Assembly: GCA_043813915.1 (NCBI GenBank)
Contig: JBDRKO010000012.1
Location: 37,457 to 101,456 of the forward strand
From: Candidatus Omnitrophota bacterium
GTDB lineage: Bacteria > Omnitrophota > Gorgyraeia > Tantalellales > Tantalellaceae
Length of the DNA: 64,000 nucleotides
Direction: 5' to 3'
The notes beneath the pieces were generated by a model. It was not told the DNA's origin. It was given only the letters and a program-made list of their open reading frames with translations, and searched no databases. Below, piece by piece: positions 1-58,355 of the stretch (position 1 is its first letter; each line of letters starts with the position of its first letter). A program made the position numbers and the translations under genes.

Positions 1-157
1 AAAAAATTTTTATTTATATCTAAAAATTCTGGAATTATTCAAAGATGATAGCGCGATATTAGTAAGGATTGACAAATATTTAACCCCGGAACTTTGCGAA
101 CTGTCTCAAATAAATGATCCTAGAACACAAAATATTTTCTATGAAGAGCTGTCTCAG

Positions 158-42970: not shown

Positions 42971-43205
42971 AAGCCAGAAGACAGAAGTCAGAGGGCAGAA
43001 AGACGAAGGACGATAGAAGAAGTGTCAGAGTGTCCCCGTAACAGTCACTTCGTTCCGGTACAGGGCAGGCGCCGTGTCAAGGTGTCAGAGATGAACAAAG
43101 GATGAAGGACGGGGGACGCATCCTTTGCGTCATTGCGAGCGTAGCGAAGCAATCCATTCCGATCCCCGAGATCCTCTCAAATATTTAATTTCGAATCTCG
43201 ACTTC

Positions 43206-43350
43206 CGCCTGTACATCGATCATACAGTTTATCCTTTATTCTTCTCTTTTTCGTAACTAAACGCTTTAAATTGTTCACACAAATAATCCGGCCTTAGATG
43301 TCTGTATCTTTGGGTCATTGCTAAGTTTTTATGTCCTAAAACTGCCTGTC
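43206..43350 (-). pseudogene. Truncated remnant of a tyrosine integrase (the C-terminal roughly 50 codons only), paralogous to the intact integrase at 48174..49256.
   Basis: Nt 43206..43350 align to 48161..48300 (the integrase 3' end) at about 80% identity. No upstream integrase sequence is present. Confidence 0.6.
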
Positions 43351-43512
43351 GGGCATACCCTTTACACTTTTTCTACTTCTTTTCGGAGGGATTGCTAGTC
43401 TTTTCTAAGCTGTTTTTAAAATAATGTAGCATTTTTACATTTTCTCATACCACTTTATGTTGCATTTTAGCATTATTATTGACATAAGCTAAGTTTATGC
43501 TATACTTATCTT

Positions 43513-44835
43513 ATGAAAAGATTTATTTGGTCACAGCTACTTCATTGGAAAGAGAAAAAAGACCGGAAACCTCTTATTTTAAGAGGTGTTCGTCAAGTTG
43601 GGAAAACATACATACTCCGTTCTTTTGCTAACACTTACTTTTCAAATGTTCATTATGTAAATTTCGAAAAAGAGGAACAATTGATCTCAATATTTGACAC
43701 TGATCTTTCGCCTGTACGGATTCTAAAAGAATTAAGTTTTCATTTGGGTCGATCTATTGATAATAAAAATGACATTATGATCTTTGATGAGATCCAGAAC
43801 GCACCCAAAGCTCTTACCAGCCTGAAATACTTTTATGAAGAAATGCCGGAAATGGCCATATGCTCGGCAGGTTCATTGCTGGGACTTCACTTGGGAGCTG
43901 AGGCATTCCCGGTAGGTAAAGTAGATTTCCTTGAGTTATATCCCTTTTCTTTTGCCGAATTTTTAAGAGGTGTCGGTGACCAAAAATCTTATACTTTTCT
44001 CAGGGATTTTAAAAAGGGACAAATTATCTCGGACCATATACATAAACATTTATGGGAACAACTAAAATTGTATTTCGTTGTAGGCGGCCTTCCTGAAGTC
44101 ATTAATACCTACTCTTCACATAAAGATAATTTATTCTCCGCGCTAGAACTAGTACGAAAAAAACAGAAAGAGCTTATTGTAGCTTATACCGCGGATATGG
44201 CAAAACATTCCGGAAAGCAGAACGCCATGCACTTAGAGCGCTTATTTAGGAACATACCTGCCCAACTTGCCAAAGAACAGGACTTTTCAGTTTCCAGGTT
44301 CAAGTTTAAGGGAATAATTCCCGGTATTAACAGATATTCAAAGCTGGCAGGTTCAATTGATTGGCTGATTAACGCGGGATTAATTATCAAATCCAACATA
44401 GTAAACCACTGTGAACTTCCCTTCTCTGCTTACACAAAAGAAAATTTCTTTAAACTTTATCTTTTTGATCCGGGTATTCTTGGTGCCTTGAGCGATCTTC
44501 CCTCTAAAGCTATCTTGGACTACGATTATGGCTCATATAAAGGATACTTCGCTGAAAATTATGCCGCTTGTGAATTCAAATGCTTTGAAGGCAAAGACCT
44601 TTATTCTTGGCAGGAAAACACCGCGGAGGTGGAATTTTTAAGAGAAATAGATGGTTCCATTTTTCCCATTGAAATCAAGTCGGGGAACATAACCCAGGCA
44701 AAAAGCCTTAAAGTGTTTGCGGACAAATATGATCCGCCATACCGCACTGTAATGAGTGGGAAAAAACCACTTTTCGATGATATAAATAAAATTCACAAGT
44801 ACCCTTTATACCTAGCTTCGCGTTTTCCTGTTTGA
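43513..44835 (+). CDS. AAA+ ATPase with a C-terminal DUF4143-like domain.
   Basis: It has the Walker A motif GVRQVGKT and a Walker B motif IMIFDEIQ. Confidence 0.7.
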   Translation: MKRFIWSQLLHWKEKKDRKPLILRGVRQVGKTYILRSFANTYFSNVHYVNFEKEEQLISIFDTDLSPVRILKELSFHLGRSIDNKNDIMIFDEIQNAPKALTSLKYFYEEMPEMAICSAGSLLGLHLGAEAFPVGKVDFLELYPFSFAEFLRGVGDQKSYTFLRDFKKGQIISDHIHKHLWEQLKLYFVVGGLPEVINTYSSHKDNLFSALELVRKKQKELIVAYTADMAKHSGKQNAMHLERLFRNIPAQLAKEQDFSVSRFKFKGIIPGINRYSKLAGSIDWLINAGLIIKSNIVNHCELPFSAYTKENFFKLYLFDPGILGALSDLPSKAILDYDYGSYKGYFAENYAACEFKCFEGKDLYSWQENTAEVEFLREIDGSIFPIEIKSGNITQAKSLKVFADKYDPPYRTVMSGKKPLFDDINKIHKYPLYLASRFPV

Positions 44836-44906
44836 GATCATAAGATCCAAAAGGGCATATGTTTTAGCAAAAAGAAAAAACCCCCACGATTAGTGAGGGT
44901 TCATTC

Positions 44907-44923
44907 AGATTGGCTGGGATGCC
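44907..44923. repeat. Direct repeat of the tRNA-Gln 3' end (17 nt, TGGCTGGGATGCCTGG), a candidate att site.
   Basis: It is identical to 45103..45119 and 52314..52330. Confidence 0.7.
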
Positions 44924-45102
44924 TGGCCGATTCGGACTATGATGCTTCTGTTCGTCGCATCATTTACGCCCTTATCGGCATTTCCTTGCGCCTTTGGCGC
45001 TCGGTCAGACTCGGCGTTACATTAATTTCATATTATTTTCGCCATCGTCCACTTACACAGACCAATAAACAAAAAACCCCTCTAACGAGGGGCATTTTGT
45101 TT

Positions 45103-45121
45103 ATGGCTGGGATGCCTGGAC
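45103..45121. repeat. Direct repeat of the tRNA-Gln 3' end (19 nt), a candidate attR of the integrative element.
   Basis: TGGCTGGGATGCCTGGACT matches the tRNA-Gln 3' end at 52314..52332. Confidence 0.75.
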
Positions 45122-45216
45122 TATCAGCTAGGCTTTCCCAAGTCCTTTAGTCACTTGTGATTGTAAACTTTCTTTAAATTTTTGGACAGTTTTTGGTCAG
45201 TTTCTAGTGAAATAGA

Positions 45217-47994
45217 TTATGCCTGCTGCAAATATAGTTGTTCTAATTCGTGGAATTCCTGAGCTCCATCAACAGCTTTAAACGCAGGTGGAAGTGCGTA
45301 TGTATCTACATAATACAATTTAGCCTTTGAGCAACCGTTAACCATTAGTTCAAGCTCCTCAACCGAAAACTTACTCTTTCCTTCTATCAAATTTACGCCA
45401 TATCTCTCATAAATCTCCGTGAACTTATCCATTGTTTCGCCCCTAAGCTCTTCATATTCTTCCCATTCCCTGCTTTCCTTATCTTTTACCACTGATCCCT
45501 TTTTTTGTTTTTCCGGCACCTTATCCCACGCAACACGAAGAGCAGCCAAGGATGCGCCCATAACTGCCGCAGCAGTATAATTGGGAACTGCAACTCCCTG
45601 CTTTGTGCTAGCATCCTTAAGCGCGACAACATATTCTCTATCGTCAATAATCCTATCCTTCGTAATATCGTCCAGGTTTTCCAACCTTATGTCAATCAAC
45701 CCATCTCCGGCTTCCGCCCTTGTATGTAATTTAAAGACGCTTTCAATTTTATCGTTCGGGAATTCATCAATATTTCTTAGTTCATTTTTTACTAAGTCAA
45801 TAACCCTTGCGGCATCTTTACCTTTAAACCCATATCTCATATTTAATCCATAAGCATTATTTCGTGTGATTATAAGTGCTAACCTTTTTATGTTTTGTTC
45901 AAGCTGCTCCTGTTTTTCTGGAAGACTTGTTAGATCTATATACATATTTGTCGGCTGATTTTGAAGAATTCTAGATGTTCTTGTTAATAAATATCTTTCA
46001 TCGTTGTTTTCTGGTTTAATTATTGTTGATTTCATATAATCTGTTTGTTTTTCTATTTTCCTATCAACAATTTCCTTATATCTGTTAGCTAATACTTTCC
46101 ACGTTTTTTTAGATCTTTCATCAGTATATAAGGGTAAATACTTGGTCTCTCTAAAATCTGGTTCGCCAAAATATTTGTTTCTAATATTTTCTAATTCAAG
46201 CCCTAATTCCTTTACTCGCTGTGTCAGGTTTGGCACCTTTTGCCGAGCCATAATATTTTCTATATTTCCCCATATTCCTTCATCAGCATTTTCCCATCTT
46301 CGCTGGCTAACAATTTGGAGAATATTTCTGGTTTGATTGGCTAAAACAATGGTAGTTCTAATAGACTCTGTTTCTTCAGGCGTAATAAACGATTCCAAAC
46401 GAGATATAATTTCATCAAAATCTGGTCCAAAATTTATGCCAAACTTATTTGACAACCCAAAGATTAGATTTGAAATACCTCTAAACTGCAATTTTTTAAT
46501 ATTTTTAATATCAAGTGGTAATTGAGAGGGTTTTCCTTGCCATACCTGTAATTGCCTGCATAAATAGGGATGCACTTCTGCCCACATGCCGTCCAGATCT
46601 AAATGAGATTCAACATCTCGATTAAAAACTTCACTATATGAGCCTTCATTAATTTCAATTATTTGTCCCATTGCAAAATAATGATAAATGTCAAAATCTA
46701 TACGTCTATTTTCTATCTCATTTCCCATCAATAATGTAGACCACAAATCTCGTTTAAAACCAAGCGAAAATAATAATTCCGTAAGCATAAGATTTACTTT
46801 GTCTGGCTGTGGCCCCCAGTAATACAGGTCAACATCTGAAGAGAATGTTTTCATATCTCGGAAATAGATTACTGCAGAAGAATCAGAAGAAACTCCTAGT
46901 TCGTTCCAAACTACTGGCAACAATTGATTAATAACCTTTTCAACAAATGTATTGGACCCTAAAGCAACTTCTTTATATATTACATCAAAGGATTTTTCTG
47001 ATAATATCAATTTTTTTTGCTTGTTTCTCAATTCTTCATATTCTCTTTTTAATGTAGCCAAAATGTCCGTCTTGCCCTGTCGAGTTATTGTTGAATTTTG
47101 CTGTGTTGTAGTAATAGTACTATTAGTGTTCTCCATTCGTACAATATTTTTGTATGAGGATAAATCTTCCCCAAGTAATTCAACGGACATATAACCTAAA
47201 ATGTCTGAAATATGATAGCACGCTGTCCAAGGATTTGTTGGATCGATCCCTAAATTTAACAGAACATCAATTAATCTACATAAAGACTGCTTTTTAACCC
47301 CATTATTAAATAATTCCAAAATGGTAGACACTACTGCGTTATCTGGTGAATCGATAGCCTGTTGCCATAAATTGCGAATTAACAAACTCTCTTCATCCTG
47401 GGGAAACTTTGATATCTTTCCACTTATATGTTTAGTAATCCAGTTTTCATATTTTTTAGTTTTTGCTATTTTATTAATGCAAATTCTATCGTTTTCTTGA
47501 CAAACATTCCCCCAGTTTAATTGTTCCATTGGCAAATGCTCTCTTAACACAGCATCTTCAACACTTATGTCTCTTCCTGCTTGCTTTTTAGTATCCGTTC
47601 TTTCCTCTGTTTGCGTATCATTATATTCAATCTCAAAAATAATATTTTCCTTCCCAATTACGTAAAAATTTGCCCTTACAGAATTTTTATCTCTTTGAAC
47701 CTCTGAAAGAAATTCTATGTTGGCCTTCCCCTTTTCAATGCCTTGTTCATGATCTTCGATTAATATTCCGTTAACAGTTGAATGCGATTTCCCGGCCAGA
47801 AGAAGTCTTACGCCTGCAAGTATTTCAAATTGTGTTTGAAGGGACATTTCAATACCTGCATCTACCAAGGCACTGAACCCTGACTGAGGAGAAAGGGTGC
47901 TCCACATATCTCCATAGACTGGATTGGATGCAAAAATGGCTCCTGCTAACAGTATAGATATTAATTTCATATAGAATTTTCTCGTAATAAACAT
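45217..47994 (-). CDS. Hypothetical 925-aa protein with an N-terminal signal-peptide-like segment (MKLISILLAGAIFASNPVYG); the start may be at 47970.
   Basis: It is a long ORF with no recognisable family. It is terminated by the bidirectional hairpin CCCCTC-taac-GAGGGG at 45066..45095. Confidence 0.7.
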   Translation of the reverse strand: MFITRKFYMKLISILLAGAIFASNPVYGDMWSTLSPQSGFSALVDAGIEMSLQTQFEILAGVRLLLAGKSHSTVNGILIEDHEQGIEKGKANIEFLSEVQRDKNSVRANFYVIGKENIIFEIEYNDTQTEERTDTKKQAGRDISVEDAVLREHLPMEQLNWGNVCQENDRICINKIAKTKKYENWITKHISGKISKFPQDEESLLIRNLWQQAIDSPDNAVVSTILELFNNGVKKQSLCRLIDVLLNLGIDPTNPWTACYHISDILGYMSVELLGEDLSSYKNIVRMENTNSTITTTQQNSTITRQGKTDILATLKREYEELRNKQKKLILSEKSFDVIYKEVALGSNTFVEKVINQLLPVVWNELGVSSDSSAVIYFRDMKTFSSDVDLYYWGPQPDKVNLMLTELLFSLGFKRDLWSTLLMGNEIENRRIDFDIYHYFAMGQIIEINEGSYSEVFNRDVESHLDLDGMWAEVHPYLCRQLQVWQGKPSQLPLDIKNIKKLQFRGISNLIFGLSNKFGINFGPDFDEIISRLESFITPEETESIRTTIVLANQTRNILQIVSQRRWENADEGIWGNIENIMARQKVPNLTQRVKELGLELENIRNKYFGEPDFRETKYLPLYTDERSKKTWKVLANRYKEIVDRKIEKQTDYMKSTIIKPENNDERYLLTRTSRILQNQPTNMYIDLTSLPEKQEQLEQNIKRLALIITRNNAYGLNMRYGFKGKDAARVIDLVKNELRNIDEFPNDKIESVFKLHTRAEAGDGLIDIRLENLDDITKDRIIDDREYVVALKDASTKQGVAVPNYTAAAVMGASLAALRVAWDKVPEKQKKGSVVKDKESREWEEYEELRGETMDKFTEIYERYGVNLIEGKSKFSVEELELMVNGCSKAKLYYVDTYALPPAFKAVDGAQEFHELEQLYLQQA

Positions 47995-48173
47995 AGTTTT
48001 GACATTATACTACTTTTATCTTGTTAGTGCAATAGAAAGTATGTAGCTTTTTCCCTCTTAATTACAATTATCTCTATAGAAGGGAGCTGAGAGTCTTTGA
48101 ATCCCGGCGGAAAGCCCTAAACCCTTGTTAGCTAAAAGACTTAAGGCTTACGCCTGTACATCAATTGTACCGT

Positions 48174-49256
48174 TTATTCTTCTTTCTTCTCTTTTTCGTA
48201 GCTAAATGCCTTAAATCGTTCATGTAAATAATCCGGCCTTAGATGTCTATATCTGCGTGTCATTGATGCGCTCTTATGGCCCAAGACCTCCTGAATGGCT
48301 GTTTCTGGTATATCCCTCATATGAGCAATAGAGCAAAAAGTGTGTCTCAGTGAGTGCACATGAACCTCTTTGATCCTTGCCTCCTGACAGCATTCTTTTA
48401 CTTTTTCCAACACCCTACGATTATTAATTACATGTCCTTTCGTTGTCTGAAACAACAGTTCTCCCTCTGTCAGCATTTGGTCTTCTATAATATTTTTTAT
48501 TTCATCGGCAATAGGGGCATATCTGTTCTCTTTATTTTTCGGGTGCCACTCTTTGCCGTCTACTTCTTTCCCGCGGATATACAATAGCGATCTTGCTAAA
48601 TCTACATCATCCTTAGTTAAATGAAGCACTTCGTTGACTCTCATACCTGTAAATAGTATCGTTGCTACGATTTCAAAATAAGGCACTTTATAATCTTTTT
48701 CTTTCATCTTTTTCAGAAGCAGAATAGCTTCTTCTTCTGTTAGATTTTCGACATGTGGTGTTGCCACTTTCTTTGGGGATGTAGCTACTGTGGGATTATT
48801 ATTAGTCCACTTGCGCGCTATAGCATATCTGAACAGGTTAGAAATTACCATCCTCTCCATGTTCCAGGTTCTCCTGGCTATCCCTCTTTCTGTCCGGGAA
48901 TAAAGGTACTCTTCTATCATGCCTGTGTTAATGTCGCTAATATTGCTCACCTTTTTTATTTCAGCAAACTCCTGAAACATCTTTATTATGCCCTGGTACC
49001 TTCTCTTAGATTCTCTTGTAGTAAGATCTGTATCAAACTTACTTCGCAGATAGCTTCTAACTACCATCTTAAAATCCGCTCCCTGCACATATCCGTCTTT
49101 TCTTTTTTGCGCTCTCTGCAACTGATTATCTTTTGCCATACGCTCTGCTTCAGATTTATTGTATGATAAGAATTTCCATACAGCTTTACCAAATTCAGTA
49201 GGACGTATGTAATATCCCTTACATCCTGCCCTGGTAACAATCTTTAATTTCTTCAT
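48174..49256 (-). CDS. Tyrosine-type site-specific recombinase (integrase).
   Basis: Its C-terminal catalytic motifs are HSLRHTF and GH...MTRRYRHL with the catalytic Tyr. The N-terminus is a SAM-like domain. Confidence 0.9.
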   Translation of the reverse strand: MKKLKIVTRAGCKGYYIRPTEFGKAVWKFLSYNKSEAERMAKDNQLQRAQKRKDGYVQGADFKMVVRSYLRSKFDTDLTTRESKRRYQGIIKMFQEFAEIKKVSNISDINTGMIEEYLYSRTERGIARRTWNMERMVISNLFRYAIARKWTNNNPTVATSPKKVATPHVENLTEEEAILLLKKMKEKDYKVPYFEIVATILFTGMRVNEVLHLTKDDVDLARSLLYIRGKEVDGKEWHPKNKENRYAPIADEIKNIIEDQMLTEGELLFQTTKGHVINNRRVLEKVKECCQEARIKEVHVHSLRHTFCSIAHMRDIPETAIQEVLGHKSASMTRRYRHLRPDYLHERFKAFSYEKEKKEE

Positions 49257-49495
49257 ATTAAGCGCCTCCTGTTATTATCAACCTTAAAATCTTTCATCAC
49301 ATCTTCTGGGTCAAATCTTAATGCATTACCTATCTTGATGTATGAAATAAGATTTTGCGAGGTCATCCTGTAAAGTTTTGATAACTTGATCTGGTACATC
49401 TCACAGATTTCCTTTGCTGTAAGATACTGTTTACTTAAGTACTTATTACTCATTTTCTTAATATCCTTTTTTGTATCTATGTCTATTAGGCACAC
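49253..49495 (-). CDS. Helix-turn-helix excisionase/AlpA-like DNA-binding protein.
   Basis: It is 80 aa with the HTH YLTAKEICEMYQIKLSKLYRM. Its stop overlaps the integrase start. Confidence 0.6.
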   Translation of the reverse strand: MCLIDIDTKKDIKKMSNKYLSKQYLTAKEICEMYQIKLSKLYRMTSQNLISYIKIGNALRFDPEDVMKDFKVDNNRRRLI

Positions 49496-50558
49496 TTTAC
49501 CCTAGAGCTATAAGTCGCCCGAGAATTCATAAAATCCCCGTTGTGCCTAGTTTATAGACGCACGAATAGCCTCTATAGTTGCAAAACATAAGCAACTACA
49601 CTTAACTATTGTTAATGATTATGGTTAGATTTTTGTCTGGCAAAGAAAAGGTAGGATTCTCTGCATAAACAATAAAAATAGAGGTCTTATGTAAACGACC
49701 TCTTTCGGGTGTGTTTTTTCTTGATATAACTAAGTAACTTTCTTAGCTTCACTATTATTATATCACTGAAATACGGTTTTTTCAACCACCCCACAAAACC
49801 CCTACCCCGTGGGCGTTTGCTCTCCAAAAAAGCAACTACCAACATCTTTCCTGTCATGACCTTAACTTTCATGCGACCACTCTCCTTTCTTTTGTGAACG
49901 TTTAATTATGTTCACTAATTGTTGATTTTCTTATAGAAAGAAGAAGAACCGGTGCTAAAAGGCACATGGGGCACGAAACAGGAACAACTAGAATATGCTA
50001 ATCGTATATAGGACCTCAGGAATTTTCCAGGATATATTCTTTCTAATGGAGTTTAGTTTTTACTGTTTGATTTTATTTTCAGCCTTTTATAAATTCTCCG
50101 GTTTTGTCTGTTAGTATATAAGTGTAAGACAAGGAAAGAGTGGAGGACAGTGATCGGCAAGATCAAGATGGTAGTGACGACAGTCACCTCATCAACATGA
50201 GGCGTTCGCAAACAGTGATTTTACACTTATGATGTTACGGGATATTTTATCTATTTTTTATGATTAGCGAACGACCCACGCAGGAACAAATATGTAGGCC
50301 TATTTGAGCAAATGGTGAAATTAGGTATGGCTTCCATAATAAACTACAAGGCATCCATAGGAGAACATGAAAGAATATCTTATACCCGATAATAGGCCAT
50401 CTAAGAAGCTAAATAGGCTTCCAATGGCTTCTAAGAAAACATGTCATATTCGCATAAGGAATGTTGTTCTGCCGCCAAACTTTGGAAAGATAGCTATGGA
50501 TTTACACGCGCGGAGAATAAATCATCAGGTGATTGATGTGAAAGAGAAGACGGAACAC

Positions 50559-52046
50559 TTATTCGGAGCTAATTGATCCTATTATTCCAGATAAAAAAAT
50601 CTGATCTCGTGCTTTCTTTTTTAATTCATCGCTGGGGTTTGCGTAAACCTTTTTACATATGTCAAACAAAACTCTCGTATCGAGAAGACCTATGCTTGCT
50701 TCCCTTGCACCTTCCAGCGCAGCAGGATCTGAGTAAAAATTTCCTCTGTTATTTGGAGCTTTATCTCTCTGATAGTTTAGGATTAGAAGTCCTGGTGGTG
50801 ATACATTTTTGATAAGCTTACTATATCGAAGCATATGATTTTTGACTTGCTCCACATATTCGTTACATGGTCCCCGGGTAACACCTTTTGCCTCACATAA
50901 GATTTCTTTGCCGTCCGCCTTCAGTATAAAATCATTGATTAAAGCCTTATCTTCTTTCTCTAGCATCGCATCCATGTCAACAACTTCAAACCCTAACCAT
51001 TCTAGTGTCTTTTTTAATGGTGGTTTTAACTTTTCTTCCTCGTCAACCTTGTCATCATCTCCGTTAGTCAAAAGAGCTCTAAAATGTTTAGAGTTTTCTC
51101 TAGCACTACTGCGTTTAGATTCTAGGTCTTCTATTTTCCCATTAAAGGTTTCTCTTACTTCTTTTTTCTCATTGATAATTCGTATTTCGTCCGAAAATTT
51201 ATACGTCTCTGTATCAAGCCAAAGGCCTTCTTGATAATCCTTACTAAATAGAGCTTCGGGAGATAGCGCAGGTAGCTCTCTAAGAATATGTTTTATTATA
51301 TTTATGTTGACCGCTTTAAAGTCTGGGAAAAACCCAACATTCCCACCATTCGGTAAATGACAAAAATAACTATGTACTAAGGTATTTTCTCCCAGAGCAA
51401 AAAACTTATCGCCTTCACCTATGTGGTCTTTTACGCAATTAAAATGCATTCCCCTTAACAGGTCAACAGAATGCCCTAATGCACCTGTCATAAGCTGTTC
51501 TATATAATTTCCTACGGCTTCGACTTTTGGTTCTGTACGAAAGAATAGATCATACTCCTCGTCCGTATCCCCTTGCGTATAAGTTATCTTCCCTCCTTTG
51601 ATGTCTAGTAGTTTCTTTACCAACAAATCATCTTCTTCAATCCTTGTCTCGCCCATAAAAACTAACACTGTCCCATTTTTTTTCAAAACTTCTGTCCCCA
51701 AACTGTATAATCCTTCCAGGCCACAACATGAGTCACTGTTACGTTTTGGAAAGCCACATATTAAACCGTGAGACTTATAAGAATATTTCTTGTATTCACA
51801 AAATGAGTTTATGCGAACTGATTCTTCGGCATCAGATGGAACTGTTGGCATGTTGTAACAACTCCTATACGCAACAATATCCACCCGGTGTGGATCTGTC
51901 GGAATATTTAATAAATCTCCGTTTAGACCAGTAGCTCCTAAATGAACTTTGTAGCCATAGTCCCTTAAAGTTTGTGCCTCTGTCGGACTAAAATCGATTA
52001 GGAGTATTCTTGGACGTATAGTTTTTTCTATATTAAAAATCTTCAT
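50559..52046 (-). CDS. Hypothetical 495-aa protein. Its C-terminal region may carry a PD-(D/E)xK-like nuclease signature (D..EAK).
   Basis: It is a long ORF in the island. The C-terminus reads DFILKADGKEILCEAKG. No family is recognised. Confidence 0.65.
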   Translation of the reverse strand: MKIFNIEKTIRPRILLIDFSPTEAQTLRDYGYKVHLGATGLNGDLLNIPTDPHRVDIVAYRSCYNMPTVPSDAEESVRINSFCEYKKYSYKSHGLICGFPKRNSDSCCGLEGLYSLGTEVLKKNGTVLVFMGETRIEEDDLLVKKLLDIKGGKITYTQGDTDEEYDLFFRTEPKVEAVGNYIEQLMTGALGHSVDLLRGMHFNCVKDHIGEGDKFFALGENTLVHSYFCHLPNGGNVGFFPDFKAVNINIIKHILRELPALSPEALFSKDYQEGLWLDTETYKFSDEIRIINEKKEVRETFNGKIEDLESKRSSARENSKHFRALLTNGDDDKVDEEEKLKPPLKKTLEWLGFEVVDMDAMLEKEDKALINDFILKADGKEILCEAKGVTRGPCNEYVEQVKNHMLRYSKLIKNVSPPGLLILNYQRDKAPNNRGNFYSDPAALEGAREASIGLLDTRVLFDICKKVYANPSDELKKKARDQIFLSGIIGSISSE

Positions 52047-52313
52047 ATCTTAGATTATACAACTAACTCCCGATAGTCTCAAGCTACAAAAGAGTTATAC
52101 TCAAACTGGCTTCATTTGTCCAATCTATTTTCCTTATTTACCTGTACAACAATTGGACAGTTTTGGACAATTTGTACATGTTTTGTACAGTATTACCAGC
52201 AAATGGAAACAACTACCCACAACTAAAAGAAAAAGCCCAAACCCTTGATTTACAAAGATTTGAGCTCTTTCTTTTTTGTTTTTATGGGCTTCTGGAAATA
52301 CCCAAAAAGATCT

Positions 52314-52388
52314 TGGCTGGGATGCCTGGACTCGAACCAGAAACGGATGATCCAGAGTCATCTGTGTTACCAATTACACCACATCCCA
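52314..52388 (-). tRNA. tRNA-Gln (anticodon CTG).
   Basis: The reverse complement folds as TGGGATG/CATCCCA acceptor, D-arm GTGT..ACAC, anticodon stem GATGA-CTCTGGA-TCATC, and T-arm TCTGG-TTCGAGT-CCAGG, with discriminator G and CCA. Confidence 0.85.
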
Positions 52389-52395
52389 GCGTGAT

Positions 52396-52647
52396 TTATT
52401 TAATTGATTCTCGCAGTATTTGTCTTAAACTGCTTCTTCCTTTCGTTGTCTTAAAATACCGTTCTCTTCTCAAGCTATCTTTTTTATCAAAAAATGCTTC
52501 ATAAAATACTAACTCCGGGTCTTTCATTCTGCTGCTTGTATGGCCTTCACCCTTCTTATGTTCCGTTATTCTTCTCTCTATGTTCCCGGTTGATCCTATG
52601 TAAAACTTTTCACTTTCCTTACTCCGCAGTACATACACATAATGCAT
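52396..52647 (-). CDS. Small stand-alone GIY-YIG nuclease-family protein.
   Basis: The N-terminus HYVYVLRSKESEKFYIGSTGNIERRITEH contains GIY..10..YIG and the conserved Arg. An AAGGA RBS precedes it. Confidence 0.8.
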   Translation of the reverse strand: MHYVYVLRSKESEKFYIGSTGNIERRITEHKKGEGHTSSRMKDPELVFYEAFFDKKDSLRRERYFKTTKGRSSLRQILRESIK

Positions 52648-52719
52648 TTTTTATACATCCTTGATCCAGCCCAGAACCGCTTAGGGTTCTGGGCTACCCG
52701 GCATCCTTTGTGGTGCCGG

Positions 52720-52791
52720 GCAGAGTCATCTGTGTTACCAATTACACTTGCCGTATACCCCACGAGGTATGCGGCCACATCCCAGCGTGAG
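52720..52791 (-). pseudogene. Duplicated 5' half of tRNA-Gln (acceptor through anticodon stem), carrying a 28-nt hairpin insertion in the D-arm.
   Basis: Nt 52720..52750 and 52779..52791 match 52355..52394. The inserted ttgccgtataccccacgaggtatgcggc forms the hairpin CCGCATACC/GGTATACGG. Confidence 0.75.
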
Positions 52792-52906: not shown

Positions 52907-53080
52907 ATGACAAAAGAGCCTAAAAATTACGCTTATTGGAAAAGTATTCTAGATAACGAAGAAAAAGCGGCGGAATTTATAGTGAAAGGCAGCGAACGGC
53001 AAAAAAAAGAACTTAAAAAAGTGTTTAAATATATGGAGATGAAAAAGGAAAAGGAACAGGCCGATCTATTTCCGGGGTAG
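52907..53080 (+). CDS. Possible small protein of 57 aa (MTKEPKNYAYWKSILDNEEKAAEFIVKGSERQKKELKK...).
   Basis: It is an ORF below the ORF-track cutoff, preceded by GGAACGGGGGG and followed by a terminator at 53106. Confidence 0.3.
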   Translation: MTKEPKNYAYWKSILDNEEKAAEFIVKGSERQKKELKKVFKYMEMKKEKEQADLFPG

Positions 53081-53105
53081 GCCGTATCTAGATCAAAGCT
53101 AATGA

Positions 53106-53130
53106 ACCCTCACTAATCGTGGGGTTTTTT
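53106..53130 (+). terminator. Intrinsic terminator CCTCAC-taatc-GTGGGG plus T6. An inverted, near-identical copy lies at 44876..44906.
   Basis: The sequence is aatgaaccctcactaatcgtggggtttttt. The reverse complement of 44876..44906 is ctgaatgaaccctcactaatcgtgggggtttttt. Confidence 0.6.
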
Positions 53131-53156
53131 GTTTCGGTAAATTTGGGGCTAAATTC

Positions 53157-53211
53157 GGGACGTTTCCTAATTAATAAGAGATTAGAAAGCAAGCAAATAG
53201 GGAAACGTCCC
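53157..53211. repeat. Palindromic element of 55 nt: GGGACGTTTCC(C)TATT - a 24-nt loop (aataagagattagaaagcaagca) - AATAGGGAAACGTCCC. This is copy 1.
   Basis: It is near-identical to 58356..58410. Confidence 0.85.
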
Positions 53212-53301
53212 TGATTTATCCCTGATTTAAACGTCTCAAATTTAATTGCAGACGTGTTTACACAAATATAGTATTATAATCATATTAACCATGATCGAAT
53301 T

Positions 53302-54072
53302 ATGAAAAAAGGACTAAAAAAAATCTTCATGTTCTCTGTTTCGACCTGTCTTTTGATCGCGTATCAAGCGGAGGCAGGAGAGGTCGGCAAGAGAGATTTT
53401 ACCGAAAAAATAGAGATCCCCGCCAATGCGTCAGGCGATAGCAAGTTTGAGGCCTACCTTACACATAAACGAGCCTATAAACTTCTTAAAGAATACCAAG
53501 CTAGTGGAGACCTAGATAAGCTCTATATAGCCTTGAATCTTGCCGGTGAAGCACTCGTCTTAGATCCTGGAGAATCCCGTTACTGGGTGACTTTAGGTGA
53601 TATTCATTCTGAAATGACTAAATTCAATATATTCCGTGCGGGCGAGTGGGCTGAGCAAGCATACCAGGAAGCCCTTGTCTTAAATCCTGAAGATACAACT
53701 ACTATGGTGCTATTAGGGATCAGTCTTGCAAAAAGCGGTGACTATAAAGAGGCCCTGCAGTATTTAGAACCGGCGCTTACCGATGATACCTATTTGATGA
53801 CATATGCTATCGGGCAGTGGTTGAATCTATGTTATCTTGCCGGCAGCCAGACTAAACGCGGCACTATATATTATGAGGAGTTTTTAAATGTCAACCCGGA
53901 GTTTTATTATTTAAGGTTATATAAAGCTTTTCTTTATAAAGCGCATTTTGATTATGTGAATGTCGAAAAAGAATTAAAGATCATTTTGGCCGATAAAGAA
54001 GCAGACTCTAAAACCAAAGAGTTTGCCTCTAATCTCCTGAAAGACCTCAAGACAGAGGAGGCCAAAGGGTAA
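53302..54072 (+). CDS. Secreted TPR-repeat protein.
   Basis: It has a signal peptide MKKGLKKIFMFSVSTCLLIAYQA and TPR-like helices (AYQEALVLNPED...GDYKEALQYLEPAL). Confidence 0.7.
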   Translation: MKKGLKKIFMFSVSTCLLIAYQAEAGEVGKRDFTEKIEIPANASGDSKFEAYLTHKRAYKLLKEYQASGDLDKLYIALNLAGEALVLDPGESRYWVTLGDIHSEMTKFNIFRAGEWAEQAYQEALVLNPEDTTTMVLLGISLAKSGDYKEALQYLEPALTDDTYLMTYAIGQWLNLCYLAGSQTKRGTIYYEEFLNVNPEFYYLRLYKAFLYKAHFDYVNVEKELKIILADKEADSKTKEFASNLLKDLKTEEAKG

Positions 54073-56957
54073 TGAAGAAAACCACGCTTTTTCTTATTTC
54101 TGTATTTCTTCTGAGTATCGCAACTTCTGCTTTTGGAGCAATATCCACCGACGATCTGGCTAAAAGAAAGGCTGAAGGAGACAGCATCTTTACCCAAATG
54201 ACTAAAGAGCGAAATAAAGCGGTAGAGTCAATTATGAACGACCCCAACACCTCTGCGATGCAAAAAAAGCAAGCTGTTAGGAGATTACAGGAAGACTTTT
54301 TGCGATCAAGCAGAGAGGTGCATTTAAAGTATCGTGAACCGTTCGTGCAAAGGATCATTGCCGAAACAAATGCTGAATTACCCAAAGACCAACAAATAAA
54401 AAGAAGCCTGGGCAGCGATATTTATAAAAGGGATGAGGTAACGGGTAAAGTTTTAAAGGATGAGTATGGACGCAAGATACTAAACCCTACGCACCGCGGG
54501 ATGCAGGGTGATCTTGATCTAGGGGGTAGCCCGAGCGCCGTGGAAAAGCTGGAGAAGAAATTCGGTGATTACGGGATAGGCAAAAAAGTTGACCCAAAGA
54601 TCCCCGTTAGCCACAAAGATTATAATAAGGTAAAAGACGCACCGGGATACCGAGATTTTAAACAGGCGGAAGTTACGATCAATATCGAAGGCCATGTGGA
54701 TAAGCCCGGAAGCTCTTCTCACTTAACACAGGTTCAGATGGATGCCTTTTCAAAGGAGACTTATGTCTCAGTAGGAATGAATAAGGATCAGCCCGGGCGC
54801 AAATTTGTCGAGGTCAATGACCATATAAAAAAAGGCACTACGGGTTTTGCGGGCCCTGCATCAGTGTTGCTTGATCCAAGATCAGAGGATGTTTTTCAAG
54901 GTGTCGGTAAAGCGACTCTAAAATCTATCGATCCTCCAAAGAAACCCGGCCAGGTTCAACACGTAAGCGATGAGCAGCTCAATAAGATCTTAAAAGAAAC
55001 AGGTTATCAAGGAGACGTGAATACGTTTAAATCTCAGGTTGCTGATATAAAGCAGGGTCACTTGCCTCAAGGCGTGGGGCTTGACGAGAAAAACATAAAA
55101 CCTTTCCAAGAAGCCTGTCAAAAGACAACCGAGCAAGCGTTGGACAATGCCAAGAAAATAGCGGATCAGGAATTTCAGAAAACAAATGAAAGGATAAAGA
55201 AGTACGATGAAGTAGCAAAGTCTCCGGATACTCCTGAATATCAAAAAAAGAGGTTTGAGAAAGAAGCCCAAAAACTCCGTGACGAATTAGCTGATTCAAA
55301 GGTAAGAATAGAACAGACTACCTTAGCTAATCAGGAAAAGTTAAAAGGGGGGAATTACGATACCTTTTACGAAAAAAAAGCGATAAAACCCAAAGCTCTG
55401 CCGGATATCCCGAAAACACCAAATGCGCCGAAATCACCCAGAATAGATGCCATAAAAAACGGACTTAAACCAGACCTTATGAGTACAGCCGGTTACGGGC
55501 TTTCTGCCTATAATGTTTATGATAATGTGCAAAAATATCAAAACGGAGAAATAACTAAGAACGACATGGTCATCGGTGTTAACAAGGAAGTTGTTGATAC
55601 CGGCTTTGGAATTGTGACGGATCTTGGGACTGCTGCGGCTGTCGGAGGTATAGGAACGGGTGCGACAGGAGCAGTTGCCACTGTAGCCGCGCCATTGGTT
55701 GTTTTCGCGGCAACCGGATACGCGGTGAGCCAGGCGGCCGAAGACGGTTTGAAAATGGCGGACGCTTTTAAAGACGAAGAAATTTTGGAAATGATAAGCA
55801 AGTCAAAGACCGAAGAAGCGATCAATACCATGCAAATGGCGGCTGAGGAAGTATTAAAGGCCGGGGAGGTAACCGGTGACTGGAAATTTTTCGCTAAGGC
55901 TGATGATGTTATTTATGCTATGGATAAATTGTATCAGGCAACGGGTGATGTTTTTTATTTACAGAGATCTAATGATCTAGCTGACCGTGTGGATAAGAAG
56001 AAAGAAGAGCTGGAGAAACAGTATGGTTGCTCGATCTATGATGTTAAGAATAAGAAGAAGGAGGAAGCGGAAAAGGAAGCTGAAAAAGAAAAGGTTCCGG
56101 AGACCAAAACCGCTGAAGAGGTTAAAGAAGCCGAGAGGGAGCCGGAAATAGTATTCGAGGAACCAGGGCCGGATGAGAATGAAGAGGAAGACGAATACGA
56201 GATTGTTTTTGAAGATGTTGATGAGGAGACCAAAACGCAGGCGAAGGAGTTTATAGAATATCAAAAGAATAAAGACGCAGAGCAAGACAAAAAAGATATG
56301 TATTACGAGATGCAAGACGCAAAGACGTCTTCTGATACGCAACGTGCTTATGATGAAGCTGCTGAAGAAGCCAGGGAAGAGAATTATTATGCTTTGGTAG
56401 GAGTATCCCAAAAGTGGCAGGATTATAAGCAACAACAGCAACAGCAGGATAAACAATACAAAAAAGAATTGGCGGCGATAAAAAAGCAATACAATGACAC
56501 GCAGAATAATACACAGGCAAAAGATCCTATCCCGGGATCTTTGGGATGGATCAACGCCAAGCCTTCTCAGGCTTCGCAACCCGCAACAAGCTATCAAGAC
56601 GGTACGGCCAGTGATCATAAAACGTATAAGCAGGAGGAGCAAAAGCGGTGTTCTTGTAAAGGGTGGTATTATTTTTGTGTCAGACCGGCTGATGGAGCCG
56701 GAGGATGGACCGGTTTTGAGGGGCTTGATAAAAGCGCAACTTGTGGGATCATGCACTTGCACAAAGTGCCTTTACAGATCCCCGGAGCAGGTACATTATA
56801 TTTTGAGGAACGGCAGGCAAATCAGGCCGGAAAATGTTTAGATAAAGGACACAAATTTCATATCGGCAAGAAGTCGCCCCAGCAGATAGATGATGCGGTA
56901 AAAAAGAGTGATGCTTTTTACGGCAAATCTTACGAGTTCGATAAAATAGATAGATAA
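54072..56957 (+). CDS. Large secreted protein of 961 aa and unknown function. It has a signal peptide, K/E-rich coiled regions, a Gly/Ala-rich zipper-like hydrophobic segment, acidic low-complexity stretches, and a Cys-rich C-terminal domain.
   Basis: The leader MKKTTLFLISVFLLSIATSAFG, the segment GTAAAVGGIGTGATGAVATVAAPLVVFAATGYA, and the C-terminus CSCKGWYYFCV..CG..H are all visible. It is translationally coupled to the upstream gene (TAATGA). Confidence 0.7.
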   Translation: MKKTTLFLISVFLLSIATSAFGAISTDDLAKRKAEGDSIFTQMTKERNKAVESIMNDPNTSAMQKKQAVRRLQEDFLRSSREVHLKYREPFVQRIIAETNAELPKDQQIKRSLGSDIYKRDEVTGKVLKDEYGRKILNPTHRGMQGDLDLGGSPSAVEKLEKKFGDYGIGKKVDPKIPVSHKDYNKVKDAPGYRDFKQAEVTINIEGHVDKPGSSSHLTQVQMDAFSKETYVSVGMNKDQPGRKFVEVNDHIKKGTTGFAGPASVLLDPRSEDVFQGVGKATLKSIDPPKKPGQVQHVSDEQLNKILKETGYQGDVNTFKSQVADIKQGHLPQGVGLDEKNIKPFQEACQKTTEQALDNAKKIADQEFQKTNERIKKYDEVAKSPDTPEYQKKRFEKEAQKLRDELADSKVRIEQTTLANQEKLKGGNYDTFYEKKAIKPKALPDIPKTPNAPKSPRIDAIKNGLKPDLMSTAGYGLSAYNVYDNVQKYQNGEITKNDMVIGVNKEVVDTGFGIVTDLGTAAAVGGIGTGATGAVATVAAPLVVFAATGYAVSQAAEDGLKMADAFKDEEILEMISKSKTEEAINTMQMAAEEVLKAGEVTGDWKFFAKADDVIYAMDKLYQATGDVFYLQRSNDLADRVDKKKEELEKQYGCSIYDVKNKKKEEAEKEAEKEKVPETKTAEEVKEAEREPEIVFEEPGPDENEEEDEYEIVFEDVDEETKTQAKEFIEYQKNKDAEQDKKDMYYEMQDAKTSSDTQRAYDEAAEEAREENYYALVGVSQKWQDYKQQQQQQDKQYKKELAAIKKQYNDTQNNTQAKDPIPGSLGWINAKPSQASQPATSYQDGTASDHKTYKQEEQKRCSCKGWYYFCVRPADGAGGWTGFEGLDKSATCGIMHLHKVPLQIPGAGTLYFEERQANQAGKCLDKGHKFHIGKKSPQQIDDAVKKSDAFYGKSYEFDKIDR

Positions 56958-56963
56958 AGGAAA

Positions 56964-57674
56964 ATGAAGATGAGGTGTAAGACAATAAAATCCACGGTAT
57001 TTTGTATTGTTGCATGTTATTTTTTTTCAGGTGTATCTATAGCTTGGGATATTTCTGAGTTTCCTCATGCCCCCAAAAAGAAACAAAGAGCCTCCTTAAG
57101 ATATCAGCCCAGATCAGAGCTTATGCAAAAGAAATACCCTTTAACCGTAGGGGTGATGGATGTCAGCGATAAAAGGGCAACATCTTTTTTTCTTGCTAAA
57201 GAGGGCGCTACCGACGAATTCTTTCAGGAGACAATAGCCGATGGAATTTCAGAAGCTTTTTACCTTGAGATGAAAAAAAGCGGTCTTTTTGAGAAAGTTG
57301 TAAAGATCGATGAAACCAGGCCCGAGGAATTAACCGCGGGATCTTTATCCGGGTTAAGAGAACAATACAATGTAGATATGCTCGTTGTCGCTGATCTTAG
57401 CAAGTTTAATATGGTAAGGGAAAAAATGGGCGGGTTGCAGTATAATTCATACATTACAAGAGTAGACATTGAGCTTATAGCTCAGCTCATTTATCTTAAA
57501 GCAGGTGTAGTTGTATGGGCAGATGTTGTTGATCGTATCAGCGAGAAGCATTCAGAAACAGGCGCTCTGAGGCCGGGAGAGGTCGGTGAACTTACCACAT
57601 CCACAATGGGTGATCTTTTTAGTGATATGAAAGTATTAATTGCAGAAACCGGTAAAGTGATGAAGGTGAAATGA
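56964..57674 (+). CDS. Putative lipoprotein or secreted protein of 236 aa, possibly with a CsgG/LpoB-like fold (weak).
   Basis: It has a signal peptide with a CIVAC-type lipobox. The pattern TVGVMDVSD...LVVADL resembles CsgG-like lipoproteins. Confidence 0.6.
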   Translation: MKMRCKTIKSTVFCIVACYFFSGVSIAWDISEFPHAPKKKQRASLRYQPRSELMQKKYPLTVGVMDVSDKRATSFFLAKEGATDEFFQETIADGISEAFYLEMKKSGLFEKVVKIDETRPEELTAGSLSGLREQYNVDMLVVADLSKFNMVREKMGGLQYNSYITRVDIELIAQLIYLKAGVVVWADVVDRISEKHSETGALRPGEVGELTTSTMGDLFSDMKVLIAETGKVMKVK

Positions 57675-58318: not shown

Positions 58319-58355
58319 TTGCGGCCAGTTCAAAAAATCCAGCCTGTATAAATTA

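What the first reader, a model, noticed from the sequence alone, without database searches (positions are those of the whole stretch)
44907..52388. Integrative element at tRNA-Gln with three direct repeats of the tRNA 3' end
The 3'-terminal 17-19 nt of tRNA-Gln (TGGCTGGGATGCCTGGACT) recur at 45103 and 44907 as direct repeats. An intact tyrosine integrase and excisionase, plus AT-rich cargo, lie between 45122 and 52313. This is the signature of tRNA-targeted site-specific integration. The third repeat, 180 bp further on, suggests serial integrations at the same attB.
Basis: partly seen in the sequence, partly recalled or inferred. Interest (0 to 1): 0.7.

Follow-up and report, generated by a model that had tools for sequence, protein, structure and literature searches.

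The report
Integrase island inserted at tRNA-Gln
A 7.2-kb mobile island with its own integrase and excisionase sits at the 3' end of a tRNA-Gln gene in a Candidatus Omnitrophota genome; a public assembly with identical flanks lacks it exactly at the repeats, so it is a real but ordinary kind of element.

Summary
The last 19 nt of tRNA-Gln(CTG) (52314-52332) recur exactly at 45104-45122. They recur in interrupted form at 44911-44938.

Between the two exact copies lie 7191 bp at 36% GC; the flanks are 45-46% GC. This segment encodes a tyrosine integrase, an overlapping HTH_17 excisionase-like gene and two orphan cargo genes. One cargo protein is 495 aa with a probable PD-(D/E)xK nuclease end. 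The other is a 925-aa modular protein with a signal-peptide-like start.

The decisive result is contig JAHITD010000221.1 of GCA_018817765.1. It is 100% identical to both flanks and joins 45122 directly to 52314. That is a precise empty site with an intact tRNA. Independent ENA contigs carry both occupied junctions.

The nearest relative's integrase (70% identity) is followed by the same arm-repeat motif and a near-identical tRNA 3'-end fragment.

Each core copy has its own terminator. A related integrase pseudogene (43241-43354) and a defence-candidate ATPase lie beyond the third repeat.

This is a new member of a well-known kind, so interest is modest.

Separately, a 396-bp GIY-YIG unit that duplicates the tRNA 5' part lies just upstream.

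The parts
52314..52388 (-). tRNA-Gln(CTG), intact. Its last 19 nt (52314-52332) are the tRNA-proximal copy of the att core.
   Evidence: ARAGORN; Rfam RF00005 60.7 bits; core search.
52117..52313 (-). tRNA-proximal arm of the island. It holds a long terminator-like hairpin (52227-52273) that now ends the tRNA transcript. It also holds a cluster of TGTAC/TGTCC repeats about 10-11 nt apart (52153-52194, plus an inverted copy at 52117-52123), which are candidate arm-type integrase sites.
   Evidence: The exact 12-mer TTGGACAGTTTT occurs only at 45182 and 52153 in the 64-kb window.
50559..52046 (-). Cargo gene of 495 aa with no family match. The N-terminal part is an alpha/beta region and the C-terminal ~120 aa has a PD-(D/E)xK-like fold (probable nuclease). 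A promoter-like site (11/12 match) lies at 52054-52082.
   Evidence: No hits in Pfam, NCBIfam, PADLOC or PHROGs. Only 12 homologs found. D372, E385 and K387 are invariant. AF2 model pLDDT 77. Foldseek matches Hjc resolvases at prob 0.96-0.97 but with weak E-values of about 0.04. Promoter scan.
49496..50558 (.). About 1.06 kb with only short ORFs (61, 52 and 69 aa) and no family matches; coding status unknown.
49253..49495 (-). Excisionase-like HTH_17 gene (80 aa). It overlaps the integrase start by 4 nt.
   Evidence: PF12728 E=2.3e-9. TIGR01764 'excise' scores 30.6 bits, above its 28.8 cut-off. The HTH_17-int pair is conserved in relatives L159-L164.
48174..49256 (-). Tyrosine integrase, 360 aa, intact.
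   Evidence: PF00589 E=8.5e-27 with SAM-like N-domain. phrog_1 integrase E=2.9e-51. R206, H301, R304, H327 and Y336 are invariant in 28 family members. 100% identical to an NCBI protein of a Candidatus Omnitrophota MAG.
48147..48173 (-). Conserved pair of TGTAC motifs just after the integrase stop codon. It is also present after the integrase remnant at 43202-43228 and after the integrases of L159 and L087.
45217..47994 (-). Cargo gene of 925 aa, function unknown. It has a signal-peptide-like N-terminus and three modules (about aa 30-180, 180-650 and 650-925).
   Evidence: No family hits. A 54%-identical homolog lies downstream of a related integrase in L087. Module structure. C-terminal domain model pLDDT 80.6 with no fold match.
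45123..45216 (-). tRNA-distal arm of the island, with two tandem arm-type repeats (TTGGACAGTTTT TGGTCAGTTTC, 45182-45204).
   Evidence: The same motif lies at the same distance from the core in L159.
45104..45122 (-). Second, exact copy of the 19-nt core: the displaced tRNA 3' end at the distal junction.
   Evidence: junction table.
44930..45103 (.). 174-bp spacer (44% GC) between core copies 2 and 3. A terminator hairpin (45076-45093, - strand) directly follows core 2. The spacer is present in both the occupied and the empty form. It is either the remnant of an earlier element or captured flank.
   Evidence: Positions 45033-45103 resemble the post-core flank of L159.
44911..44938 (-). Third, fossil copy of the core. 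The 19 nt are interrupted by a 9-nt insertion, and the first 16 nt on the + strand are exact.
44876..44905 (-). Terminator hairpin following the third core. A 97%-identical inverted twin lies at 53101-53130.
43513..44835 (+). AAA_14/DUF4143 ATPase (440 aa) in a 37% GC segment, probably cargo of an older decayed island. It matches the candidate defence family PDC-S01.
   Evidence: Pfam; PADLOC PDC-S01 E=1.1e-129; GC.
43202..43354 (-). Remnant of a second, related integrase gene. It keeps the last 38 codons (30/38 identical to the intact one, including the catalytic-Tyr box RYRHL) plus 27 nt after the stop.
   Evidence: 80% nucleotide identity over 147 nt to 48147-48293; tblastn E=2e-15.

Best explanation
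Positions 45123-52313 are a small genomic island (7191 bp, or 7210 bp counting one core copy as a circle). It entered the chromosome of a Candidatus Omnitrophota bacterium by site-specific recombination between its attP and the 3' end of tRNA-Gln(CTG).

Shown here:
- The island encodes an intact tyrosine integrase and an excisionase-family HTH protein.
- It is bounded by an exact 19-bp direct repeat that is the T-loop-to-CCA end of the tRNA.
- The tRNA is intact in the occupied state.
- An otherwise identical chromosome segment exists without the island, cut exactly at the repeat.

Inferred:
- The integrase binds core sites around the 19-bp crossover region.
- It also binds arm-type sites of consensus TTGKACAGTTTT, which are clustered in direct orientation 60-160 bp inside both ends.
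- Strand exchange within the 19 bp replaces the tRNA's last 19 nt with the identical attP-borne copy, together with an island-borne terminator.
- The original 3' end and its terminator are left at the far junction.
- The HTH_17 protein directs the reverse reaction.
- The island has no recognisable replication, packaging or conjugation genes, so transfer between cells must depend on something else.

The cargo is two orphan genes: a 495-aa protein with a probable PD-(D/E)xK nuclease domain and a 925-aa modular protein with a signal-peptide-like start.

The locus has been used repeatedly. A fossil core with a 9-nt insertion, a 174-bp spacer, a low-GC segment carrying a defence-candidate ATPase and the tail of a related integrase gene are the debris of at least one, and probably two, earlier insertions.
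For: - Repeats and tRNA.
- Integrase and excisionase families and catalytic residues.
- Composition: 36.4% GC against 45-46% in the flanks.
- Empty site: L168 (GCA_018817765.1) equals 41403-45122 fused to 52314-52411 at 100% identity, with the tRNA-Gln intact.
- Occupied junctions in independent assemblies: L167 equals 41403-45679 at 100%, and L166 equals 52790-51545 at 99.9%.
- Arm motif: the exact 12-mer occurs only at 45182 and 52153, each with neighbouring degenerate copies.
- Nearest relative L159 (integrase 70% identical) has, after its integrase, the same paired motif, then ATCCAGGCATCCCAACCA, then a terminator. That is the same type of distal junction.
- Terminator-like hairpins follow each of the three cores on the tRNA strand.
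- Integrase remnant and PDC-S01 ATPase beyond the third core.
- No phage or conjugation families, and no family member above 31% identity among IMG/VR viral contigs.
Against: - No circular attP junction was seen. Only IMG/VR could be scanned for it, and there was no match.
- None of the 32 loci examined that carry this integrase family, at 37-70% identity (L081-L106, L159-L164), contains a tRNA-Gln gene. Many are short contigs. Targeting of tRNA-Gln is therefore documented only for this island and, through a tRNA-end fragment, for L159.
- The arm-site assignment rests on motif position and conservation in one relative, not on binding data.
- The empty-site contig does not show whether the island excised or was never inserted, nor whether Int/Xis or RecA-type recombination produced it.
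- The 174-bp spacer is host-like in GC (44%) and resembles L159's flank. The exact history behind the third repeat is therefore open.
Confidence: 0.88

Rival explanations
1. It is a defective prophage or a phage satellite (PICI-like) rather than a plain genomic island. The int-xis module is what remains of, or serves, a virus-dependent element that is packaged by a helper phage.
For: Larger relatives with the same HTH_17-int pair carry a Phage_rep_O-like gene and a DEAD/ResIII helicase upstream (L161). The integrase's best PHROG hit is phrog_1. The island has no transfer genes of its own.
Against: The 7.2 kb contain no capsid, terminase, portal, tail, primase or replication-initiator match. 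No member of this integrase family above 31% identity is present among IMG/VR viral contigs. The cargo consists of two long orphan genes.
Confidence: 0.1
2. The presence/absence difference is not integrase-driven. It is either an assembly mis-join across the 19-nt repeat, or a deletion by homologous recombination or replication slippage between the repeats of an island that is no longer mobile.
For: Only one empty-site contig is known, and it ends 98 nt past the junction. No attP circle was found.
Against: A 19-nt repeat is shorter than the k-mers used by metagenome assemblers, so reads must span the junction. Both occupied junctions are also assembled independently at k=141 (contig names). 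The integrase and excisionase genes are intact, and the core is 19/19 identical at both ends. The flanks are 100% identical between the forms, so the difference is very recent.
Confidence: 0.05
3. The third repeat does not record a separate earlier integration at the tRNA. It could be a secondary (pseudo-)att site, or a piece of tRNA flank carried in by an imprecisely excised element. In that case the 174-bp spacer is native or captured host DNA.
For: The spacer is 44% GC, like the host. Positions 45033-45103 align at roughly 70% with the DNA beyond the core in relative L159. The spacer shows no detectable similarity to the ends of the 7.2-kb island.
Against: The third copy reproduces the whole 19-nt core plus the two element-side bases of the second junction. 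It has its own terminator. It is followed by low-GC DNA with an integrase remnant and a defence-candidate gene. That layout is what tandem accretion at one attB produces.
Confidence: 0.2

Closest known systems
tRNA-targeting genomic islands and prophages of lambda/P4-type tyrosine integrases, in the class whose crossover segment runs from the T-loop to the 3' end of the tRNA (classification recalled from Williams 2002, Nucleic Acids Res 30:866; from my own knowledge, not read here)
   Same: Tyrosine integrase plus excisionase. The att core is identical to the tRNA 3' end including CCA. An intact tRNA is regenerated. Direct repeats lie at both ends, GC content differs from the host, and empty and occupied alleles both exist.
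   Different: It is very small (7.2 kb) and has no phage genes. The integrase has a XerC/D-like SAM_1 N-domain rather than a recognised P4-type arm-binding domain. The host phylum is Omnitrophota, and the cargo is entirely orphan.
Integrative mobilizable elements such as Bacteroides NBU1/NBU2 (from my own knowledge)
   Same: A small element that integrates at a tRNA 3' end through a short core, carries an integrase plus a few cargo genes, and depends on other elements for transfer.
   Different: No relaxase, mobilisation protein or oriT could be recognised, so mobilisability is untested.
Tandem accretion of integrative elements at one attB (ICE/CIME arrays, as described for Streptococcus thermophilus ICESt1/ICESt3; from my own knowledge)
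   Same: Several att copies in direct orientation. The newest element lies nearest the tRNA, with decayed remnants beyond it that have lost their integrase.
   Different: The remnants here are reduced to 174 bp and about 1.7 kb. One fossil core carries a 9-nt insertion, and the outermost att is missing.
Phage T4 SegB, a free-standing GIY-YIG homing endonuclease in a tRNA gene cluster (PMC2330249; PMC13096335, abstracts). Relevant only to the neighbouring GIY-YIG unit.
   Same: A GIY-YIG gene embedded among tRNA sequences, with evidence of segmental (tandem) duplication of the unit.
   Different: The protein here has only 83 aa, a bare catalytic domain with no DNA-binding domain. It is chromosomal, and no cleavage activity is known.

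Membership tests
tRNA-integrated tyrosine-recombinase genomic island | Encodes a tyrosine recombinase with the catalytic R..H-x-x-R..H..Y residues | tested here: met
   PF00589 E=8.5e-27. R206, H301, R304, H327 and Y336 are invariant in a 28-member alignment.
tRNA-integrated tyrosine-recombinase genomic island | Bounded by direct repeats identical to part of a tRNA gene, with the tRNA left intact | tested here: met
   The 19/19-nt repeat lies at 45104-45122 and 52314-32, with none expected by chance. The tRNA is intact.
tRNA-integrated tyrosine-recombinase genomic island | An unoccupied attB exists in the same or a closely related genome, with the break exactly at the repeat | tested here: met
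   L168 (GCA_018817765.1) joins 45122 to 52314 with 100% identical flanks and an intact tRNA.
tRNA-integrated tyrosine-recombinase genomic island | A recombination directionality factor (excisionase) is present | tested here: met
   The gene is HTH_17 / TIGR01764 above cut-off and overlaps the integrase start. Its function is inferred from homology only.
tRNA-integrated tyrosine-recombinase genomic island | An excised circular form (attP junction) exists | tested here: inconclusive
   The exact junction pattern is absent from IMG/VR.
tRNA-integrated tyrosine-recombinase genomic island | Integrase binds arm-type and core-type sites in attP | not testable with these tools
   Only candidate sites are available: TTGKACAGTTTT repeats in both arms, conserved in L159.
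Prophage | Virion structural and packaging genes (capsid, portal, terminase, tail) | tested here: not met
   No Pfam, NCBIfam or PHROG hit other than int and xis.
Integrative conjugative element (ICE) or integrative mobilizable element (IME) | Relaxase with or without a type IV secretion/coupling protein, or a recognisable oriT | tested here: not met
   No such family in any ORF of 45123-52313. An oriT cannot be recognised from sequence alone.
Phage satellite (PICI-like) | Primase/replication-initiator module and helper-interference or packaging genes next to int | tested here: not met
   Absent from this island. A Phage_rep_O-like gene and a helicase occur only in larger relatives.

The most novel reading that the evidence does not exclude
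The tRNA-Gln locus carries a second, unrelated kind of tRNA-duplicating mobile unit. It is a 396-bp cassette (52395-52790) made of a copy of the tRNA 5' part (nt -6 to 41, split by 27-nt and 52-nt hairpin inserts) and an 83-aa GIY-YIG-only ORF. The cassette lies between the native promoter and the intact tRNA. It would spread or amplify by nuclease-triggered repair while always leaving a working tRNA.

Support comes from two observations. First, contig L166 joins a second GIY-YIG copy to the pseudo-tRNA through the 16-nt end repeat, which is a tandem or circular junction. Second, a 55%-identical homolog sits behind tRNA-Asn in 7 of 8 contigs examined. In L259 and L263 it is preceded by two hairpins and followed by an exact 17-nt copy of that tRNA's 3' end.

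If general, this would be an undescribed family of miniature tRNA-associated homing cassettes in Omnitrophota and Patescibacteria.
Probability: 0.3. Interest if true: 0.6.

Novelty: new member of a known kind. Interest (0 to 1): 0.3.

Why it matters
Mobile elements of Omnitrophota are little characterised. This one comes with precisely defined attL, attR and attB sequences, a candidate arm-site motif, and a natural empty/occupied polymorphism at 100% flank identity. The integrase, its 19-bp target and its directionality factor could therefore be tested directly, and might serve as a genetic tool for an uncultivated phylum. The island also marks two orphan protein families (a 495-aa nuclease-like protein and a 925-aa modular protein) as mobile cargo, which makes them reasonable candidates for defence or host-interaction functions. 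As biology it is otherwise a textbook tRNA-targeted island.

Tried and rejected
- I tested whether the integrase family generally targets tRNA-Gln. The 32 family loci from metagenome contigs and look-ups contain no tRNA-Gln and no copy of the core. Only the closest one, L159, shows a tRNA-end junction.
- Exact-protein look-ups for the integrase, GlnRS and the 495-aa protein found nothing on record.
- An attP junction search in IMG/VR found no match.
- An integrase-family search in IMG/VR found nothing above 31% identity, so the prophage reading was rejected.
- Direct-repeat searches in the long relatives L083, L160 and L161 found no convincing att pair within the stretches held.
- Function of the 925-aa protein: Pfam, NCBIfam, PADLOC and PHROGs gave no hits, and a confident model of its C-terminal domain has no significant PDB fold match.
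- Function of the 495-aa protein: only weak fold matches to PD-(D/E)xK nucleases, so the nuclease assignment is tentative.
- I considered that the pseudo-tRNA plus GIY-YIG might be a group I intron in the tRNA and rejected it. The 368 nt between equivalent positions hold a 252-nt ORF and leave no room for an intron core, and Rfam found nothing at E<=1.
- A general GIY-YIG/tRNA association is not universal. Two other homolog contexts (L169, L170-L175) have no tRNA nearby.
Full report
**1. Observation**

ARAGORN places tRNA-Gln(CTG) on the minus strand at 52314-52388, and Rfam scores it as tRNA at 60.7 bits. The plus-strand 19-mer TGGCTGGGATGCCTGGACT is the reverse complement of the tRNA's last 19 nt, from the T-loop through the encoded CCA.
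- It occurs at 52314-52332 and exactly again at 45104-45122.
- It occurs with two mismatches at 44911-44929. No matches are expected in shuffled sequence.
- Read in tRNA orientation, the third copy is ATAGTCC-GAATCGGCC-AGGCATCCCAGCCA. That is the whole core split by a 9-nt insertion, preceded by the same two bases (AT) as the second copy.

**2. What lies between the exact copies**

Positions 45123-52313 (7191 bp) are 36.4% GC, against 46.3% to the left and 45.2% to the right. All clear genes are on the tRNA strand. In order from the tRNA they are:
- **A 495-aa orphan (50559-52046)**, behind an 11/12 sigma-70-like promoter match.
- **About 1 kb with only short ORFs.**
- **An 80-aa HTH_17/TIGR01764 excisionase-family gene (49253-49495).** It overlaps the integrase start by 4 nt.
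- **A 360-aa tyrosine integrase (48174-49256).** It matches PF00589 at E=8.5e-27 and phrog_1 at E=2.9e-51. The catalytic Arg/His/Arg/His/Tyr positions are invariant across 28 relatives.
- **A 925-aa orphan (45217-47994).**

Nothing matches phage structural, replication or conjugation families. The integrase is 100% identical to an NCBI protein from a Candidatus Omnitrophota MAG on a 113,764-nt contig.

**3. Decisive evidence for mobility**

Exact-protein look-ups of flanking genes returned three informative contigs.
- **L168 (GCA_018817765.1, JAHITD010000221.1, 3799 nt)** equals window 41403-45122 at 100%. It then continues, through the 19-nt core, as window 52314-52411 at 100%. ARAGORN finds an intact tRNA-Gln there. 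This is a precise empty site.
- **L167 (ENA ERZ27247128)** equals 41403-45679 at 100%, which is the occupied distal junction.
- **L166 (same ENA sample)** equals 52790-51545 at 99.9%, which is the occupied tRNA-side junction.
- **L165 (GCA_018817765.1)** equals 53241-58943 at 100%, so the same strain-level population is involved.

The junctions, written in tRNA orientation, are:
- attL: CGTTTCTGGTTCG|AGTCCAGGCATCCCAGCCA|AGATCTTTTTGGG
- attR: CCTAGCTGAT|core|TAAACAAAATGCCCC
- attB: CGTTTCTGGTTCG|core|TAAACAAAATGCCCC

attP follows by inference. A 19-nt repeat cannot cause a mis-join at assembler k-mer sizes, and both states were assembled independently.

**4. Candidate arm sites and the nearest relative**

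The exact 12-mer TTGGACAGTTTT occurs only twice in 64 kb, at 45182 and 52153. The first is 60 nt inside the distal core and the second about 150 nt inside the tRNA end. Each has degenerate neighbours at 10-11-nt spacing: two copies distally, and four or five proximally plus one inverted.

In L159, whose integrase is 70% identical, the integrase is followed in turn by:
- a TGTAC pair motif;
- the tandem repeats AAATTGTACAAAAACTGTACAAAAAA;
- about 50 nt later, ATCCAGGCATCCCAACCA;
- a terminator hairpin.

This is the same kind of distal junction on a near-identical tRNA 3' end. It is independent comparative support for both the target and the arm motif. A related TGTAC pair directly follows the integrase stop in this island, in the integrase remnant at 43202-43228 and in L087. 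More distant relatives (37-53% identity) keep the HTH_17-int pair and have variable, often defence-like cargo downstream of int (Vsr plus Dcm plus Z1; DUF4062). None of the stretches held contains tRNA-Gln.

**5. Serial use of the site**

On the tRNA strand each core copy is followed by its own terminator-like hairpin: 52273-52227 after the tRNA, 45093-45076 after copy 2 and 44902-44878 after copy 3. That pattern is expected if each incoming element brings a new tRNA 3' end plus terminator and pushes the old one outward.

Beyond copy 3 lies 43202-44910 at 37% GC.
- It carries an AAA_14/DUF4143 ATPase that matches PADLOC candidate PDC-S01 at E=1.1e-129.
- At 43241-43354 it carries the last 38 codons of a second integrase. 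These are 30/38 identical to the intact one, including RYRHL, with 80% nucleotide identity over 147 nt.
- No fourth core was found, so the outer end of that old element is deleted.

The third repeat, the spacer and this old segment are present in the empty-site contig too, so they are older and fixed.

The 174-bp spacer between copies 2 and 3 is 44% GC, and part of it resembles L159's post-core flank. Whether it is a remnant of an element or captured flank is unresolved. I put the serial-integration reading at about 0.7.

**6. Cargo**

- **495-aa family.** The family is tiny, with 12 proteins found and none annotated. An AlphaFold model (pLDDT 77) has a C-terminal domain whose best matches are archaeal Hjc resolvases, Can2, EcoO109I and the Avs4 nuclease domain. 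Foldseek probability is 0.96-0.97, but E-values are only about 0.04. Invariant D372, E385 and K387 fit a PD-(D/E)xK motif. A nuclease role is therefore probable, not shown.
- **925-aa protein.** It has a signal-peptide-like start and three modules. A 54%-identical homolog of the central module lies downstream of a related integrase in L087. The 270-aa C-terminal module ends many proteins of up to 4824 aa, which elsewhere carry deaminase, HD, kinase or methyltransferase domains. Its model (pLDDT 80.6, pTM 0.79) has no significant PDB match, so its function is unknown.

**7. Comparison with known systems, and novelty**

In mechanism and anatomy this is a classical tRNA-3'-end-targeting tyrosine-integrase island. 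All sequence-testable defining features are met. Only the circular intermediate and protein-DNA binding remain untested. It is not a prophage, ICE or recognisable IME or satellite, because the defining genes are absent. Tandem debris at the same attB is also a known phenomenon. I rate it as a new member of a known kind. The points of interest are the host phylum, the clean natural empty/occupied pair and the orphan cargo.

**8. Noticed beside the finding**

Immediately upstream of the tRNA is an 83-aa GIY-YIG-only ORF (52396-52647; PF01541 E=5.7e-17). Before it lies a copy of the tRNA's 5' part:
- TCACGC plus nt 1-10 (16/16 identical);
- a 27-nt hairpin insert;
- nt 10-36 (27/27 identical);
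- a 52-nt double hairpin;
- GGATCA, corresponding to nt 36-41.

The 396-nt unit is bounded by the 16-nt repeat.

Contig L166 begins with the end of a second GIY-YIG copy, joined through that repeat to the pseudo-tRNA. This is a tandem or circular junction, and it cannot be a k-mer artefact at k=141.

A 55%-identical homolog (P0139) lies about 100 nt behind a full tRNA-Asn in 7 of 8 contigs. In L259 and L263 it is preceded by two hairpins and followed, 4 nt after its stop, by an exact 17-nt copy of that tRNA's nt 57-73. Two other homolog contexts have no tRNA. Homologs are mostly named Patescibacteria and sit on very short contigs.

This may be a small homing-type cassette that keeps the tRNA functional. 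T4 SegB is the nearest described analogue. The lead is only partly followed.

Noticed in passing
window 52395-52790 (- strand): A 396-nt unit lies between the native promoter region and the intact tRNA-Gln. It holds a copy of tRNA nt -6..41, in blocks 16/16, 27/27 and 6/6 identical to the real tRNA and split by a 27-nt hairpin and a 52-nt double hairpin. An RBS and an 83-aa GIY-YIG-only ORF (52396-52647) follow. The unit is bounded by a 16-nt direct repeat (52379-52394 = 52775-52790). The pseudo-tRNA region folds with z = -4.8.
   Followed up: partly
L166 1-140 (ENA ERZ27247128 k141_1859041): The contig starts with the last 70 nt of a GIY-YIG copy and runs through the 16-nt repeat into the pseudo-tRNA with its 27-nt insert. 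The 396-nt unit is therefore tandemly duplicated, or circular, in that sample. The window has a single unit.
   Followed up: partly
L259 1243-1700; L263 218-671; also L256, L258, L260-L262: A 55%-identical GIY-YIG homolog (P0139) lies about 100 nt downstream of an intact tRNA-Asn(GTT) in 7 of 8 contigs. In L259 and L263 the order is tRNA, two hairpins, ORF, then an exact 17-nt copy of tRNA nt 57-73. In L260 the copy is diverged. In L257 the same tRNA end plus cassette has different downstream genes. Two other homolog contexts (L169, L170-L175) have no tRNA.
   Followed up: partly
window 44876-44905 and 53101-53130: A 30-nt terminator hairpin next to the third att copy has a 97%-identical inverted twin. 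The twin lies upstream of the tRNA region, just after a 57-aa orphan ORF (52907-53080). There are no other copies in the window and the relationship is unexplained.
   Followed up: partly
window 42969-43034 vs 38132-38197; 53150-53211 vs 58349-58410: Short intergenic repeats (66 nt at 97%, 62 nt at 95%) flank the locus. The second coincides with a contig break of GCA_018817765.1 at 53241.
   Followed up: no
L087 9208-9500, 11692-11963, 13893-13982: In a related element (integrase 48% identical), each cargo gene downstream of int is flanked by a 250-300-nt direct repeat (81-87% identity) that starts with the TGTAC pair motif. One of those genes is the homolog of the 925-aa protein. This suggests modular accretion of cargo cassettes.
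   Followed up: partly
window 45217-47994 (925-aa protein), aa 650-925: The 270-aa C-terminal module recurs at the extreme C-terminus of many large proteins (up to 4824 aa). Their other domains include MafB19-like deaminase plus HD, APH kinase plus methyltransferase, and PPDK-like domains. A confident model has no PDB fold match.
   Followed up: partly
window 41297-42970 and 52314-52388: The glutaminyl-tRNA synthetase gene lies next to the tRNA-Gln locus, about 2.1 kb from the tRNA in the empty-site form. The best GlnRS match among GTDB species representatives is only 72% identical.
   Followed up: no
L168 end (window 52411): The empty-site contig stops 79 nt beyond the core. That is the length expected for a k=99 graph in which empty and occupied alleles coexist and paths merge. 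It is suggestive only and was not checked against reads.
   Followed up: no
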